Origin: a virus
Virus genome (UHGV): UHGV-1974939
Length of the DNA stretch: 11,546 nt
Reading direction: 5' to 3' (one strand)
Part shown: piece after piece, positions 4,001 through 11,546 of the stretch
Layout of the letters: every line of letters starts with the position of its first letter
How positions within the stretch are numbered: the first letter of the stretch is position 1
The notes under the pieces: generated by a model
Databases searched by the model: none
Told to the model about the DNA's origin: nothing
Seen by the model: the letters and a program-made list of their open reading frames with translations, nothing else
Translations under genes and position numbers: made by a program

Positions 4001-4024
4001 ATGGCCCTTCGGGGCCATTTTCTC
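4001..4024 (+). terminator. Stable UUCG-tetraloop hairpin with a T-rich tail immediately downstream of E
   Basis: atggccc (4001-4007), loop ttcg (4008-4011), gggccat (4012-4018): a 7-bp stem with five G-C pairs closing a UUCG tetraloop, followed by tttctct. It starts 3 nt after the E stop and ends just before the FI ribosome-binding site. The T-tract is interrupted, so this may be an RNA-stability or attenuator element rather than a strong terminator. Confidence 0.45.
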
Positions 4025-4037
4025 TGTGGAGGAGTCC

Positions 4038-4433
4038 ATGACGAAAGATGAACTGATTGCCCGTCTCCGCTCGCTGGGTGAACAACTGAACCGTGATGTC
4101 AGCCTGACGGGAACGAAAGAAGAACTGGCGCTCCGTGTGGCAGAGCTGGAAGAGGAGCTTGATGACACGGATGACGCAGCCGGTCAGGACTCGTCTGTCA
4201 GCCCGGAAAATGCGCTGACCGGACATGAAAATGAGATGGTATCAGCACAGACGGATACCGTGACTGATACGGCTGCTCTGGTCACGGTTGTGGCACTGGT
4301 GACGCTGCATACCGATGCACTTCACGCCACGCGGGATGAACCTGTGGCATTTGTGCTGCCGGGAACGGCGTTTCGTGTCTCTGCCGGTGTGGCAGCCGAA
4401 ATGACAGAGCGCGGCCTGGCCAGAATGCAATAA
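4038..4433 (+). CDS. FI: DNA packaging / head assembly protein FI
   Basis: ORF-track frame 4026..4433; ATG 4038 is preceded by GGAGGAG at 4028-4034. The product MTKDELIARLRSLGEQLNRD...ERGLARMQ is recognisable as lambda gpFI, with a divergent central linker. Stop is TAA 4431-4433. Confidence 0.9.
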   Translation: MTKDELIARLRSLGEQLNRDVSLTGTKEELALRVAELEEELDDTDDAAGQDSSVSPENALTGHENEMVSAQTDTVTDTAALVTVVALVTLHTDALHATRDEPVAFVLPGTAFRVSAGVAAEMTERGLARMQ

Positions 4434-6543: not shown

Positions 6544-6966
6544 ATGTTCCTGAAAACCGAATCATTTGAACATAACGGTGTGACCGTCACGCTTTCTGAA
6601 CTGTCAGCCCTGCAGCGCATTGAGCATCTCGCCCTGATGAAACGGCAGGCAGAACAGGCGGAGTCAGACAGCAACCGGAAGTTTACTGTGGAAGACGCCA
6701 TCAGAACCGGCGCGTTTCTGGTGGCGATGTCCCTGTGGCATAACCATCCGCAGAAGACGCAGATGCCGTCCATGAATGAAGCCGTTAAACAGATTGAGCA
6801 GGAAGTGCTTACCACCTGGCCCACGGAGGCAATTTCTCATGCTGAAAACGTGGTGTACCGGCTGTCCGGTATGTATGAGTTTGTGGTGAATAATGCCCCT
6901 GAACAGACAGAGGACGCCAGGCCAGCAGAGCCTGTTTCTGCGGGAAAGTGTTCGACGGTGAGCTGA
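6544..6966 (+). CDS. G: Tail assembly chaperone G
   Basis: ATG 6544 preceded by GGAGAG at 6531-6536. The 140-aa product (MFLKTESFEHNGVTVTLSELSALQRIEHLALMKRQ...) is recognisable as lambda gpG. Stop is TGA 6964-6966. Confidence 0.93.
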   Translation: MFLKTESFEHNGVTVTLSELSALQRIEHLALMKRQAEQAESDSNRKFTVEDAIRTGAFLVAMSLWHNHPQKTQMPSMNEAVKQIEQEVLTTWPTEAISHAENVVYRLSGMYEFVVNNAPEQTEDARPAEPVSAGKCSTVS

Positions 6967-7382
6967 GTTTTGCCCTGAAACTGGCGCGTGAGATGGGGCG
7001 ACCCGACTGGCGCGCCATGCTTGCCGGGATGTCATCCACGGAGTATGCCGACTGGCACCGCTTTTACAGTACCCATTATTTTCATGATTTTCTGCTGGAT
7101 ATGCACTTTTCCGGGCTGACGTACACCGTGCTCAGCCTGTTTTTCAGCGATCCGGATATGCATCCGCTGGATTTCAGTCTGCTGAACCGGCGCGAGGCTG
7201 ACGAAGAGCCTGAAGATGATGTGCTGATGCAGAAAGCGGCAGGGCTTGCCGGAGGCGTTCGTTTTGGCCCGGACGGGAATGAAGTTATCCCCACTTCCCC
7301 GGATGTGGCGGACATGACGGAGGATGACGTAATGCTGATGACAGTATCAGAAGGGATCGCAGGAGGAGTCCGGTATGGCTGA
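6544..7382 (+). CDS. T: Tail assembly chaperone G-T fusion, made by programmed -1 ribosomal frameshift at 6942-6948
   Basis: The -1 frame relative to G is open from 6948 to TGA 7380-7382 (ORF track 6948..7382, product FDGELSFALKLAREMGRPDWRAMLAGMSSTEYADWHRFY...) and has no independent start with a ribosome-binding site. A G GGA AAG heptamer sits in the G zero frame seven codons before the G stop. This is the textbook lambda G/G-T arrangement. Confidence 0.85.
6942..6948 (+). other. Slippery heptanucleotide G_GGA_AAG for the G to G-T -1 frameshift
   Basis: The sequence gggaaag at 6942-6948 has GGA and AAG as zero-frame codons of G (codon starts 6943 and 6946), an X_XXY_YYZ pattern. The -1 frame continues in-frame into the T ORF. 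Confidence 0.85.
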
Positions 7383-9957
7383 ACCGGTAGGCGATCTGGT
7401 CGTTGATTTAAGTCTGGATGCGGCCAGATTTGACGAGCAGATGGCCAGAGTCAGGCGTCATTTTTCCGGTACGGAAAGTGATGCGAAAAAAACAGCGGCA
7501 GTCGTTGAACAGTCGCTGAGCCGACAGGCGCTGGCTGCACAGAAAGCGGGGATTTCCGTCGGGCAGTATAACGCCGCCATGCGTATGCTGCCTGCACAGT
7601 TCACCGACGTGGCCACGCAGCTTGCAGGCGGGCAAAGTCCGTGGCTGATCCTGCTGCAACAGGGGGGTCAGGTGAAGGACTCCTTCGGCGGGATGATCCC
7701 CATGTTCCGGGGGCTTGCCGGTGCGATCACCCTGCCGATGGTGGGGGCTACCTCGCTGGCGGTGGCGACCGGAGCGCTGGCGTATGCCTGGTATCAGGGC
7801 AACTCAACCCTGTCCGATTTCAACAAAACGCTGGTCCTTTCCGGTAATCAGGCAGGACTGACGGCAGATCGTATGCTGGTCCTGTCCAGAGCCGGGCAGG
7901 CGGCAGGGCTGACGTTTAACCAGACCAGCGAGTCACTCAGCGCACTGGTTAAGGCGGGAGTAAGCGGTGAGGCTCAGATTGCATCCATCAGCCAGAGTGT
8001 GGCGCGTTTCTCCTCTGCATCCGGCGTGGAGGTGGACAAGGTCGCTGAAGCCTTCGGGAAGCTGACCACAGACCCGACGTCGGGGCTGACGGCGATGGCA
8101 CGCCAGTTCCATAACGTGACGGCGGAGCAGATTGCGTATGTCGCTCAGTTGCAGCGTTCCGGCGATGAGGCAGGGGCATTGCAGGCGGCGAACGAGGCCG
8201 CAACGAAAGGGTTTGATGACCAGACCCGCCGCCTGAAAGAGAACATGGGCACGCTGGAGACCTGGGCAGACAGGACAGCGCGGGCATTCAAATCCATGTG
8301 GGATGCGGTGCTGGATATTGGTCGTCCTGATACCGCGCAGGAGATGCTGATTAAGGCAGAGGCTGCGTTTAAGAAAGCAGACGACATCTGGAATCTGCGC
8401 AAGGATGATTATTTTGTTAACGATGAAGCGCGGGCGCGTTACTGGGATGATCGTGAAAAGGCCCGTCTTGCGCTTGAAGCCGCCCGAAAGAAGGCTGAGC
8501 AGCAGAGTCAACAGGACAAAAATGCGCAGCAGCAGAGCGATACCGAAGCGTCACGGCTGAAATATACCGAAGAGGCGCAGAAGGCTTACGAACGGCTGCA
8601 GACGCCGCTGGAGAAATATACCGCCCGTCAGGAAGAACTGAACAAGGCACTGAAAGACGGGAAAATCCTGCAGGCGGATTACAACACGCTGATGGCGGCG
8701 GCGAAAAAGGATTATGAAGCGACGCTGAAAAAGCCGAAACAGTCCGGCGTGAAGGTGTCTGCGGGAGAGCGTCAGGAAGATCGAGCACATGCAGCTCTTC
8801 TTGCGTTACAAGCTGAACTAAAAATGCTTGAGCAGCATAGCGGAGCGAATGAAAAAATCAGCCAGCAGCGCCGAGATTTGTGGACAGCCGAAAGCCAGTA
8901 TGCCGTGTTGCATGAGAAGTTGTCTGCTGACGTTCTGGATGGACAGAAGAAATCGCTAAGTATCGAGGAAAAATCTCTTCTTGCTCATGAAAAAGAGACG
9001 CTGGAGTACAAACGTCAGCTGGCTGCACTTGGCGATAAGGTTGAACACCAGAAACGGCTGAACGAACTGGTACAGCAGGCGGATAAATTCGCACAGCAAC
9101 AACGGGCAAAACGGGCAGCCATTGAGGCGAAAAGCCGGGGACTGACTGACCGGCAGGCAGCGCGGGAAGCCATGGAACAGCGCCTGAAGGAACAGTATGG
9201 CGATAATCCGCTGGCGCTGAATAACGTCATGTCAGAGCAGAAAAAGACCTGGGCGGCTGAAGACCAGCTTCGCGGGAGCTGGATGGCAGGCCTGAAGTCC
9301 GGCTGGAGTGAGTGGGAAGAGAGCGCCACGGACAGTATGTCGCAGGTAAAAAGTGCAGCCACGCAGACCTTTGATGGTATTGCACAGAATATGGCGGCGA
9401 TGCTGACCGGCAGTGAGCAGAACTGGCGCAGCTTCACCCGTTCCGTGCTGTCCATGATGACAGAAATTCTGCTTAAGCAGGCAATGGTGGGGATTGTCGG
9501 GAGTATCGGCAGCGCCATTGGCGGGGCTGTTGGTGGCGGCGCATCCGCGTCAGGCGGTACAGCCATTCAGGCCGCTGCGGCGAAATTCCATTTTGCAACC
9601 GGAGGATTTACGGGAACCGGCGGCAAATATGAGCCAGCGGGGATTGTTCACCGTGGTGAATTTGTCTTCACGAAGGAGGCAACCAGCCGGATTGGCGTGG
9701 GAAATCTCTACCGGCTGATGCGCGGCTATGCCACCGGCGGTTATGTCGGTGGCACCGGAAGTCCGGCGCAAATGCGGCGTTCAGAGGGTATCAGGTTTGA
9801 GCAGAACAACAACGTGGTGATTCAGAACGACGGTACGAATGGTCTGCCAGGTCCACAGATGATGAAGGCAGTGTATGACATGGCCCGCAAGGGTGCCCGT
9901 GATGAAATTCAGACACAGATGCGTGATGGTGGCCTGTTCTCCGGAGGTGGACGATGA
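7375..9957 (+). CDS. H: Tail tape measure protein H
   Basis: ATG 7375 preceded by AGGAGGAG at 7361-7368 and overlapping the T stop by 8 nt. The 860-aa product is recognisable as lambda gpH. It has an N-terminal hydrophobic segment (GLAGAITLPMVGATSLAVATGALAYAW), a long charged Ala/Gln/Lys/Glu-rich helical centre and a Gly-rich C-terminal region (GSIGSAIGGAVGGGASASGG). Confidence 0.95.
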   Translation: MAEPVGDLVVDLSLDAARFDEQMARVRRHFSGTESDAKKTAAVVEQSLSRQALAAQKAGISVGQYNAAMRMLPAQFTDVATQLAGGQSPWLILLQQGGQVKDSFGGMIPMFRGLAGAITLPMVGATSLAVATGALAYAWYQGNSTLSDFNKTLVLSGNQAGLTADRMLVLSRAGQAAGLTFNQTSESLSALVKAGVSGEAQIASISQSVARFSSASGVEVDKVAEAFGKLTTDPTSGLTAMARQFHNVTAEQIAYVAQLQRSGDEAGALQAANEAATKGFDDQTRRLKENMGTLETWADRTARAFKSMWDAVLDIGRPDTAQEMLIKAEAAFKKADDIWNLRKDDYFVNDEARARYWDDREKARLALEAARKKAEQQSQQDKNAQQQSDTEASRLKYTEEAQKAYERLQTPLEKYTARQEELNKALKDGKILQADYNTLMAAAKKDYEATLKKPKQSGVKVSAGERQEDRAHAALLALQAELKMLEQHSGANEKISQQRRDLWTAESQYAVLHEKLSADVLDGQKKSLSIEEKSLLAHEKETLEYKRQLAALGDKVEHQKRLNELVQQADKFAQQQRAKRAAIEAKSRGLTDRQAAREAMEQRLKEQYGDNPLALNNVMSEQKKTWAAEDQLRGSWMAGLKSGWSEWEESATDSMSQVKSAATQTFDGIAQNMAAMLTGSEQNWRSFTRSVLSMMTEILLKQAMVGIVGSIGSAIGGAVGGGASASGGTAIQAAAAKFHFATGGFTGTGGKYEPAGIVHRGEFVFTKEATSRIGVGNLYRLMRGYATGGYVGGTGSPAQMRRSEGIRFEQNNNVVIQNDGTNGLPGPQMMKAVYDMARKGARDEIQTQMRDGGLFSGGGR

Positions 9958-10283
9958 AAACCTTCCGCTGGAAAGTGAAACCCGGTATGGATGTGGCTTC
10001 GGCCCCTTCTGTAAGAAAGGTGCGCTTTGGTGATGGCTATTCCCAGCGAGCGCCTGCCGGGCTGAATGCCAACCTGAAAACGTACAGCGTGACGCTTTCT
10101 GTCCCCCGTGAGGAGGCCACGGTACTGGAGTCGTTTCTGGAAGAGCACGGGGGCTGGAAAGCCTTTCTGTGGACGCCGCCTTATGAGTGGCGGCAGATAA
10201 AGGTGACCTGCGCAAAATGGTCGTCGCGGGTCAGTATGCTGCGTGTTGAGTTCAGCGCAGAGTTTGAACAGGTGGTGAACTGA
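9954..10283 (+). CDS. M: Tail tip assembly protein M
   Basis: ATG 9954 overlaps the H stop as ATGA and is preceded by GGAGGTGG at 9943-9950. The 109-aa product (MKTFRWKVKPGMDVASAPSVRKVRFGDGYSQRAP...) is recognisable as lambda gpM. Confidence 0.93.
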   Translation: MKTFRWKVKPGMDVASAPSVRKVRFGDGYSQRAPAGLNANLKTYSVTLSVPREEATVLESFLEEHGGWKAFLWTPPYEWRQIKVTCAKWSSRVSMLRVEFSAEFEQVVN

Positions 10284-10986: not shown

Positions 10987-11546
10987 ATGACAGAGACAGA
11001 ATCAGCGATTCTGGCGCACGCCCGGCGATGTGCGCCAGCGGAGTCGTGCGGCTTCGTGGTGAGAACGCCGGAAGGGGAAAGATATTTTCCCTGCGTGAAT
11101 ATCTCCGGTGAGCCGGAGGATTATTTCCGGATGGCTCCGGAGGACTGGCTGCAGGCAGAAATGCAGGGTGAGATTGTGGCGCTGGTCCACAGCCACCCCG
11201 GTGGTCTGCCCTGGCTGAGTGAGGCTGACCGGCGGCTGCAGGTGCAGAGTGATTTGCCGTGGTGGCTGGTCTGCCGGAGGACGATTCATAAGTTCCGCTG
11301 TGTGCCGCATCTCACTGGGCGGCGCTTTGAACACGGGGTGACGGACTGTTACACGCTGTTCCGGGATGCTTATCATCTGGCGGGGATTGAGATGCCGGAT
11401 TTTCATCGCGAGGATGACTGGTGGCGTCACGGTCAGAATCTCTATCTGGATAATCTGGAGGCCACAGGGCTGTATCAGGTGCCGTTGTCATCAGCACAAC
11501 CGGGCGATGTGCTGCTGTGCTGTTTTGGTTCATCGGTGCCGAATCA
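10987..11546 (+). CDS. K: Tail tip assembly protein K (JAMM/MPN plus NlpC/P60 two-domain protein), 3'-truncated by the window edge
   Basis: Not in the ORF track because the frame has no stop inside the window. Hand translation from ATG 10987 in frame 1 gives MTETESAILAHARRCAPAESCGFVVRTPEGERYFPCVNISGEPEDYFRMAPEDWLQAEMQGEIVALVHSHPGGLPWLSEADRRLQVQ...GVTDCYTLFRDAYHLAGIEMPDF..., open to nt 11546. It contains an H-x-H-x7-S-x2-D JAMM signature at 11188-11229 and follows L by 5 nt, as K does in lambda. The start could instead be ATG 11131, which has GGAGGA upstream. Confidence 0.85.
   Translation, partial: MTETESAILAHARRCAPAESCGFVVRTPEGERYFPCVNISGEPEDYFRMAPEDWLQAEMQGEIVALVHSHPGGLPWLSEADRRLQVQSDLPWWLVCRRTIHKFRCVPHLTGRRFEHGVTDCYTLFRDAYHLAGIEMPDFHREDDWWRHGQNLYLDNLEATGLYQVPLSSAQPGDVLLCCFGSSVPN

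What the first reader, a model, noticed from the sequence alone, without database searches (positions are those of the whole stretch)
8760..9010. Low-GC patch inside the tape-measure gene H, possibly a recombinationally exchanged segment
By hand count, 8761-8880 is about 51% G+C and 8881-9000 about 46%, against about 65% for 9481-9600 in the same gene. The encoded stretch (LLALQAELKMLEQHSGANEKISQQRRDLWTAESQYAVLHEKLSADVLDGQKKSLSIEEKSLLAHEKETLEYKRQ) uses AT-rich codons. The H product here is 860 aa against the 853 aa I recall for lambda H, so a short in-frame indel exists somewhere in H and I suspect it lies in this patch. Tape-measure length sets tail length, and lambdoid phages are mosaic, so a swapped block here is plausible but unproven.
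Basis: partly seen in the sequence, partly recalled or inferred. Interest (0 to 1): 0.45.

Follow-up and report, generated by a model that had tools for sequence, protein, structure and literature searches.

The report
Swapped low-GC block in tape-measure gene
A roughly 300-400 bp stretch in the middle of this lambda-like prophage's tail tape-measure gene H was replaced by recombination with a divergent, AT-richer allele carrying 7 extra codons, which is a real but ordinary case of lambdoid phage mosaicism.

Summary
The observation and the interpretation both hold. H (7375-9957, 860 aa) is 98-100% identical to lambda H on both sides. Between 8766 and 9173 (dense core 8781-9072) identity falls to 48-85%. 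Synonymous divergence rises from 0.02-0.05 to 0.76-1.2, and third-position GC drops to 0.44-0.48 against 0.65-0.68 in lambda.

The only length difference from lambda, 21 nt (7 codons), lies inside this block at about 8920-8967.

The same block occurs at 95% identity or more in about 62 of 5,426 complete E. coli genomes and in several IMG/VR and metagenome contigs. It is absent from all 50,697 sequenced phage records. It assorts independently of other polymorphic H blocks, and one strain (MB06173) carries only its right half, with the junction at 8874-8885.

No donor lineage was found.

The block lies between the two Pfam domains, in the helical, unresolved part of gpH*. Seven residues add about 1 nm, roughly a quarter of one tail-tube ring, so a change in tail length is unlikely.

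Verdict: a genuine recombinant allele of a well-known kind, of low interest.

The parts
7375..9957 (+). Gene H, tail length tape-measure protein, 860 aa, intact ORF
   Evidence: ORF list and translation. Pfam TMP_2 at aa 54-256 and Tape_meas_lam_C at aa 634-708. Full-length match to lambda gpH, PDB 8iyk_H. 93.8% nt identity to J02459 H overall.
8766..9173 (+). Block B, the whole divergent (exchanged) segment relative to lambda, phage 21 and PhiR49_1 (aa 464-600)
   Evidence: Mismatch list and alignment. dS 0.76 against 0.02-0.05 in the flanks, with dN/dS 0.2. GC3 0.47 against 0.65 in lambda.
8766..8853 (+). Sub-block B1, the left half. It has the lowest GC3 (0.40) and saturated synonymous divergence.
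   Evidence: It is lambda-type in strain MB06173, although that strain has the B-type right half.
8854..8884 (+). Conserved 31-nt island (KISQQRRDLW) inside the block. It served as a crossover site in a related allele.
   Evidence: Only one mismatch to lambda, at 8874. The MB06173 junction lies between 8874 and 8885.
8885..9072 (+). Sub-block B2, the right half with dense divergence
8905..8967 (+). Barely alignable core (aa 511-531) that holds the 21 extra nucleotides (7 codons, LSADVLD at aa 516-522 in the protein-guided alignment)
   Evidence: 42% nt identity to every non-B allele, and 21 aa here against 14 aa in the others. The gap is placed at 8945-8965, 8924 onward, or aa 516-522. In the AF2 model, the residues right after the extra heptad (aa 523-529) form a break between two long helices.
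9073..9173 (+). Right-hand tail of the block with sparse mismatches to lambda, itself sub-mosaic among carriers
   Evidence: Mismatches at 9099, 9117, 9126, 9141, 9161-2 and 9173. Carriers differ from one another here.
9751..9870 (+). Block D, a second and independent mosaic patch in H. The window carries the phage-21 type, not the lambda type.
   Evidence: 60% nt identity to lambda and 99% to phage 21 and USMARC-51408.

Best explanation
Shown: the central part of H (8766-9173) is a recombinant block. An otherwise lambda-like H gene carries about 300-400 bp of a long-diverged H allele.

Inferred mechanism: the block was acquired by homologous or homeologous recombination (gene conversion) between lambdoid phages or prophages. 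Crossovers would fall in short conserved stretches, to the left of 8766 and to the right of 9072-9173. An internal island at 8854-8884 was used in another lineage.

The imported allele evolved under purifying selection (dN/dS about 0.2) in a context with lower third-position GC. It carries one extra heptad-sized insertion at a predicted helix-break-helix junction.

Inferred function: the block encodes part of the helical ruler region of gpH*, between the TMP_2 and Tape_meas_lam_C domains. There, length and helicity probably matter more than exact sequence, so the swap is tolerated. The extra 7 aa add about 1 nm, or 0.25 of a tube ring, so the tail probably keeps 32 gpV rings.
For: Outside the block the gene is 98-100% identical to lambda. 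Inside it identity is 48-85%, and the only indel is there.

dS is 0.046 and 0.023 in the flanks, 0.76 across the block and 1.23 in its core. Substitution density differs with Fisher p = 1e-48.

GC3 is 0.48-0.51 in every carrier of the block and 0.65-0.71 in every other allele type examined, while the flanks are equal.

The block combines freely with other variable parts of H. It occurs with the 75-aa or the 81-aa form of block A, the lambda-type or 21-type form of block D, and the MAEPVGDL or MSQPVGDL N-terminus. MB06173 carries only the right half.

The block is present at 95% identity or more in about 62 complete E. coli genomes. The exact 860-aa protein is found on 13 public contigs, so it is not an artefact. 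E. coli genomes carry a median of 2 and up to 8 H-like copies, which gives ample opportunity for exchange.

The block lies outside both Pfam domains. An AF2 model (mean pLDDT 66) predicts long helices with a break at aa 523-529.

The lambda tail has 32 rings with 42 A rise (PMC10721106). Most of gpH* is unresolved in the tube lumen (PMC12617516).

Rad52-like phage recombinases generate such mosaics from diverged substrates (PMC3945230).
Against: No donor lineage was found, that is, no H gene that is uniformly diverged and carries this block. The phage records, the GTDB species representatives, IMG/VR and the metagenome contigs yielded only relatives with 95% or higher identity, or alleles at about 75%. 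The direction and age of the exchange are therefore inferred from composition and flank identity.

The right border is gradual rather than sharp, which implies several events.

The functional neutrality of the +7 aa is inferred, not tested. gpH* also forms the trans-envelope channel (PMC12617516), so sequence-specific roles cannot be excluded.

The AF2 model has only moderate confidence.
Confidence: 0.88

Rival explanations
1. The block is a functional specificity cassette. Exchange of this gpH* segment is selected because it changes how the ejected tape-measure protein interacts with the host envelope, for example ManYZ dependence, or because it escapes DicB-type or superinfection-exclusion blocks. 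On this reading it is not a neutral ruler spacer.
For: gpH* forms at least part of the trans-envelope DNA channel, and segment 320-691 is modelled as part of it (PMC12617516). Lambda needs ManYZ for DNA entry, and host factors such as DicB block it (PMC6832061). That paper also cites Cumby et al. 2015, which links the HK97 tape-measure protein to inner-membrane PtsG. The core at aa 511-531 shows more non-synonymous than synonymous change, although the alignment there is unreliable. Several discrete allele types persist at this segment.
Against: Over the alignable part of the block dN/dS is about 0.2, so selection is purifying rather than diversifying. Much of the difference is synonymous (32 synonymous against 28 non-synonymous codon changes). 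The allele is rare, in about 1% of genomes. No experiment or co-variation with other genes was tested.
Confidence: 0.08
2. The divergence arose in place by local hypermutation or relaxed constraint, for example a diversity-generating retroelement target or a mutational hotspot, without any exchange.
For: The core is very divergent and varies in length.
Against: Synonymous sites are saturated while the flanks are nearly identical. GC3 shifts uniformly. The identical block is found in different H backbones, and half of it in MB06173. H holds no template-like repeat; the best direct repeat is 47 nt at 70%. The rest of the window aligns collinearly with the lambda morphogenesis genes, with no inserted gene.
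Confidence: 0.02
3. The low-GC patch reflects a hidden nucleotide-level element inside H, such as an internal promoter, a small RNA, an antisense gene or a moron, or it is an assembly artefact.
For: AT-richer DNA inside a GC-rich gene can mark such elements. A mechanical 83-aa ORF lies on the minus strand at 8858-9109.
Against: No promoter-like site was found in 8500-9400. Rfam gave no match below E = 0.5. The antisense frames contain stops in the window and are not conserved relative to lambda. The extra DNA is only 21 nt and is in frame. The block recurs in more than 60 independent complete genomes.
Confidence: 0.02

Closest known systems
Bacteriophage lambda gpH (J02459 10542-13103; PDB 8IYK chain H), 853 aa
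   Same: Same gene position (G/T - H - M). Same Pfam architecture. 98-100% nt identity outside blocks B and D. Same N- and C-termini.
   Different: Block B is 77% nt identical (42% in the core), 7 aa longer, and has GC3 0.48 against 0.65. Block D (9751-9870) is 60% identical.
E. coli prophage tape-measure proteins carrying the same block: WP_097561024.1 (strain 382634_2f, 860 aa), WP_113842064.1 (MS1657, 866 aa), WP_072971418.1 (strain 190, 866 aa)
   Same: Block B is 97.6-99.3% nt identical, including the 21-nt insertion.
   Different: They differ elsewhere in H. The 866-aa forms have the alternative 81-aa block A (+18 nt at 8442). All three carry the lambda-type block D, whereas the window has the 21-type.
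O157/O145-type lambdoid prophage H (for example WP_025404275.1, RM13514, 859 aa; MSQPVGDL N-terminus)
   Same: In parts of block B the protein resembles this family more than it resembles lambda (ERQEDRAHAALLAL; EKSLLAHEKETLEYKRQLA.LGDKVEHQKRLNEL).
   Different: Only 72-73% nt identity in the block. It lacks the 7-aa insertion, and its GC3 is 0.68-0.71. It is therefore not the donor.
Katsura's engineered in-frame deletions and duplications of lambda H (Katsura 1987, Nature 327:73, cited in PMC10721106)
   Same: They also change the length of the central region of H.
   Different: As I recall, those changes spanned tens to hundreds of residues and shifted tail length measurably. This is a natural change of 7 residues, less than one ring equivalent.
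Homology-driven mosaics among temperate coliphages (De Paepe et al. 2014, PMC3945230)
   Same: A short divergent segment bounded by near-identical sequence, exchanged among lambdoid phages and prophages.
   Different: Here the exchange is intragenic, only about 0.3-0.4 kb long, and no donor has been identified.

Membership tests
Lambda gpH-type tail tape-measure protein | N-terminal TMP_2 domain (PF06791) | tested here: met
   aa 54-256, E = 8e-70
Lambda gpH-type tail tape-measure protein | Tape_meas_lam_C domain (PF09718) | tested here: met
   aa 634-708, E = 3.8e-21
Lambda gpH-type tail tape-measure protein | Full-length collinear similarity to lambda gpH | tested here: met
   phmmer against 8iyk_H gives aa 1-860 against 1-853 with E = 0. 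The nucleotide alignment has a single indel.
Lambda gpH-type tail tape-measure protein | Gene lies between the G/T chaperone pair (with slippery GGGAAAG) and M | tested here: met
   ORFs at 6544-6966 (G), 6948-7382 (T) and 9954-10283 (M). GGGAAAG at 6942. Same order on contigs that carry the identical protein.
Lambda gpH-type tail tape-measure protein | Protein length sets tail length | not testable with these tools
   Needs electron microscopy of virions. The expected change is 7 aa x 1.5 A, about 1 nm, against a 42 A ring rise.
Recombinant mosaic block (lambdoid modular exchange) | Abrupt change of divergence, including at synonymous sites, relative to the flanks | tested here: met
   dS 0.76-1.23 against 0.02-0.05; Fisher p = 1e-48
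Recombinant mosaic block (lambdoid modular exchange) | Near-identical flanking sequence that could support homologous crossover | tested here: met
   Flanks are 98-100% identical. The internal island 8854-8884 served as a junction in MB06173.
Recombinant mosaic block (lambdoid modular exchange) | Independent assortment with other polymorphic segments (incongruence) | tested here: met
   Block B is found with both forms of block A, both forms of block D and both N-terminal types.
Recombinant mosaic block (lambdoid modular exchange) | Identifiable donor lineage | tested here: not met
   Phage records give at best 78% nt and 74% aa identity. GTDB representatives gave none. IMG/VR and metagenomes gave only copies with 95% or higher identity.
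Diversity-generating retroelement variable region | A template repeat elsewhere, plus a reverse transcriptase | tested here: not met
   No long repeat of the block within H (the rest of the window was not scanned for repeats). Apart from blocks B and D the window aligns with lambda morphogenesis genes at 89% identity or more per 100 nt, with no inserted gene.
Moron or embedded gene | Own ORF with its own promoter or terminator | tested here: not met
   Only 21 in-frame nt are extra. No promoter-like site. Antisense frames are not conserved.

The most novel reading that the evidence does not exclude
Block B is one of several interchangeable specificity cassettes in gpH*. It would tune how the ejected tape-measure channel engages inner-membrane host factors (ManYZ-type) or evades prophage-encoded entry blocks. 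Its foreign codon composition would mark import from an unsampled lambdoid lineage of a lower-GC host.
Probability: 0.08. Interest if true: 0.55.

Novelty: new member of a known kind. Interest (0 to 1): 0.2.

Why it matters
The finding gives a clean, well-bounded example of intragenic mosaicism in a structural phage gene. H in E. coli prophages is built from small, independently assorting blocks, and length modules of +6, -2, +7 and -4 aa give proteins of 853-866 aa. This allele is absent from all sequenced phage isolates. It would be a convenient natural variant for testing how tolerant the lambda ruler is to sub-ring length changes, and whether the central gpH* region has sequence-specific roles in DNA entry. 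It does not change current understanding.

Tried and rejected
- **Donor search, exact match.** The exact 39-mer of the insertion gave 0 hits in the GTDB species representatives.
- **Donor search, peptide.** A peptide-pattern scan of the same collection returned mostly lambda-type copies. Many sit on tiny low-coverage contigs of unrelated taxa, which suggests lambda DNA contamination, and none was a donor.
- **Donor search, degenerate pattern.** A back-translated ADVLDGQKK pattern in IMG/VR and the metagenomes found only relatives with 95% or higher identity, plus two chance hits.
- **Protein homologue search.** The search for homologous proteins with the 137-aa block returned only short Escherichia and Shigella fragments, which say nothing about a donor.
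- **Tandem heptad duplication as the origin of the insertion.** For KSLSIEE against KSLLAHE the best 21-mer self-match was 12 of 21, which is not convincing.
- **Heptad-register scoring.** The region showed no clear coiled-coil phase in either allele.
- **DGR-like template repeat.** None found within H.
- **Promoter, terminator and Rfam scans.** Nothing meaningful.
- **Antisense ORF at 8858-9109.** Not conserved.
- **AF2 model of aa 434-660.** Only moderate confidence (pLDDT 66). I used it only for helix and break positions, and ran no fold search.

Full report
**Observation**

The window is the left (morphogenesis) arm of a lambda-like prophage. H is the ORF at 7375-9957 and encodes 860 aa.

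8761-8880 is 0.508, 8881-9000 is 0.458 and 9481-9600 is 0.633. 8760-9010 is 0.482, against 0.571 for H and 0.574 for the window. Only 1.2% of 251-nt windows in the whole 11.5 kb are this low, and the only other such place is near 2852-2917. The H minimum is at 8795.

Raw GC in 120-nt windows is only a moderate outlier, since 8340-8459 is 0.475 in both this window and lambda. Third-position GC reaches its gene-wide minimum here (0.375 at 8755; gene mean 0.63, sd 0.11).

**Comparison with lambda**

Lambda H (J02459 10542-13103, 853 aa), phage 21 H and PhiR49_1 H align with the window H with a single length difference that all three share, 21 nt at 8945-8965; PhiR49_1 also lacks 1 nt at 7665.

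Identity per 60 nt is 57-60 of 60 from 7375 to 8754. It then drops to 45, 48, 34, 28, 51, 54 and 54 between 8755 and 9174, and returns to 59-60. The first clustered mismatch is at 8766. The dense core is 8781-9072, and a sparse tail runs to 9173.

Across the whole window, only 8701-9100 (minimum 48%) and 9701-9900 (70-80%) fall below 85% identity to lambda.

Substitution density is 85 in 387 nt in the block against 24 in 1,968 nt in the flanks (Fisher p = 1e-48).

Nei-Gojobori estimates:

| Region | dS | dN/dS |
|---|---|---|
| Left flank | 0.046 | not calculated here |
| Downstream flank | 0.023 | not calculated here |
| Whole block | 0.76 | about 0.2 |
| Block core | 1.23 | about 0.17 |

Codon changes in the block are 32 synonymous and 28 non-synonymous. 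GC3 is 0.47 (0.44 in the core) against 0.65 (0.68) in lambda, while the flanks have equal GC3. The low GC is therefore largely a matter of synonymous codon usage, as expected for DNA with a different evolutionary history.

**Position of the indel**

The protein-guided alignment places the extra heptad at aa 516-522, LSADVLD, nt 8920-8940. The nucleotide alignments place it at 8945-8965 or from 8924.

All placements lie within a 21-aa core (aa 511-531, nt 8905-8967). That core is only about 42% identical in nucleotides to any other allele, so the exact position cannot be determined.

**Evidence for recombination**

I aligned fourteen H alleles. H proved to be a patchwork of small blocks:

| Block | Window coordinates | Variant forms |
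|---|---|---|
| A | 8335-8557 | 75 aa or 81 aa, about 50% nt identity between forms |
| B | 8766-9173 | this finding |
| 12-nt indel | 9523-9534 | present or absent |
| D | 9751-9870 | lambda-type or 21-type |
| E | about 7915-7975 | variable |

Block B occurs with either form of A and either form of D. It also occurs with either the lambda-type (MAEPVGDL) or the O157-type (MSQPVGDL) N-terminus.

Strain MB06173 has lambda-type sequence up to 8874 and B-type sequence from 8885. The crossover therefore lies within the conserved island 8854-8884, which encodes KISQQRRDLW.

All carriers of block B have GC3 of 0.48-0.51 in the block. All other allele types have 0.65-0.71.

Taken together, this is independent assortment, a compositional signature and a visible internal junction. 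The block is a recombinational module and not a product of in-place divergence.

**Distribution**

- No record in the phage collection (50,697 records) matches the block above 78% nt or 74% aa identity.
- Among 5,426 complete E. coli genomes, 62 carry the block at 95% identity or more, and 5 more at 90-95% (MB06173-like half blocks). In contrast, 3,674 records carry only alleles at 60-80%.
- Genomes hold a median of 2 and up to 8 H-like copies, so partners for gene conversion are common.
- The exact 860-aa protein is on 13 public contigs of 5-50 kb, with a complete lambda-like late operon on the four contigs read.

**Donor search**

An exact 39-mer, a peptide-pattern scan of the GTDB species representatives, and a degenerate ADVLDGQKK pattern in IMG/VR and the metagenomes all gave the same result. 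They returned either copies with 95% or higher identity in lambda-like H genes, or unrelated and lambda-type sequences.

At the protein level, parts of block B resemble the O157/O145-type H family. The nucleotide identity to that family is only 72-73%, and it lacks the insertion. The donor lineage therefore remains unsampled.

**What the block encodes**

Block B lies between TMP_2 (aa 54-256) and Tape_meas_lam_C (aa 634-708), in a region with no Pfam domain.

In solved lambda structures only gpH residues 818-842/849 are resolved. The remainder sits unresolved in the tube lumen (PMC10721106; PMC12617516). The 2025 Ur-lambda study models residues 320-691 as a hexameric tube that contributes to the trans-envelope channel.

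I built an AF2 model of aa 434-660 on a shallow alignment (mean pLDDT 66). It predicts a 60-residue helix (aa 463-522), a break at aa 523-529 (GQKKSLS) and further long helices. The extra heptad would then extend the end of a helix next to a break, which is a tolerant position.

The lambda tube has 32 gpV rings with about 42 A rise each. That corresponds to about 1.6 A per H residue. Seven residues give about 1 nm, or 0.25 ring, so I infer no change in ring number, or at most an occasional one.

**Mechanism**

The mechanism is inferred. Homology-driven exchange that tolerates divergence is the experimentally supported route to such mosaics among lambdoid phages and prophages, and it is promoted by Rad52-like phage recombinases (PMC3945230). 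The conserved flanks and the internal island fit this route.

**Rivals**

- **In-place hypermutation or DGR.** Rejected. Synonymous sites are saturated, the block is shared across backbones, there is no template repeat within H, and the window aligns collinearly with the lambda morphogenesis genes with no inserted gene.
- **Hidden element or artefact.** Rejected (recurrence).
- **Functional specificity-cassette role.** This cannot be excluded. gpH* is involved in DNA entry, lambda depends on ManYZ and DicB can block entry (PMC6832061). Against it, dN/dS of about 0.2 and the rarity of the allele argue against strong diversifying selection.

**Verdict**

The block's right edge needs correcting, from 9010 to 9072-9173, and the implied effect on tail length is probably negligible. 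This is a new allele of a textbook phenomenon and is of low interest.

Noticed in passing
window 9751-9870: A second mosaic patch in H (block D). It is 60% nt identical to lambda but 99% identical to phage 21 and E. coli USMARC-51408, and it assorts independently of block B.
   Followed up: partly
window ~10987-11546 (gene K), difference at ~11120: K reads as one open frame from the ATG just after L, the 247-aa Prok-JAB + NlpC/P60 form seen in related prophages. Lambda J02459 has 1 nt fewer at about 11120, which splits this frame, and it annotates K as 199 aa from an internal Met. The lambda reference K therefore looks 5'-truncated by a frameshift.
   Followed up: partly
L004 and L005 (E. coli MS1657 and strain 190), equivalent to window 8335-8557: An alternative block A in H, 81 aa instead of 75 aa (+18 nt at window 8442), only about 50% nt identical to the window and lambda form. 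It is also present in O157-type H genes. H length in E. coli prophages ranges from 853 to 866 aa through such modules.
   Followed up: partly
L009-L033 (GTDB genome-contig hits): Lambda-type H sequence sits on small, often very low-coverage contigs in assemblies of unrelated taxa such as Paenibacillus, Pseudomonas, Kitasatospora, Bradyrhizobium and Corynebacterium. This is most likely lambda control-DNA contamination of those assemblies.
   Followed up: no
L002 (PV340568.1, phage PhiR49_1), equivalent to window 7665: A 1-nt deletion splits H into two annotated CDS in this phage record. It is either a sequencing error or a genuinely frameshifted tape-measure gene in an isolated phage.
   Followed up: no
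L004 3347-5962 (E. coli MS1657): An IS66-family element (ISCro1) is inserted between U and V of a prophage that carries block B, so that carrier is probably defective.
   Followed up: no
L052 22383-22583 (GCA_021653575.1 contig, 45 kb): A contig that encodes the identical H protein has a SopB_HTH partition-type gene downstream of the tail-fibre genes. This hints at a lambda-like phage-plasmid (N15-style) background for one carrier.
   Followed up: no
window 4018-4300 (gene FI region): Identity to lambda is 89-91%, with 2-nt and 3-nt indels at 4018 and 4265. This is the next most divergent stretch of the window after blocks B and D.
   Followed up: no
window 8461-8507 and 8794-8840: A 47-nt direct repeat within H at 70% identity (ARLALEAARKKAEQQ against ALLALQAELKMLEQH). 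It probably reflects an old internal repeat or similar helical sequence in the ruler region.
   Followed up: no
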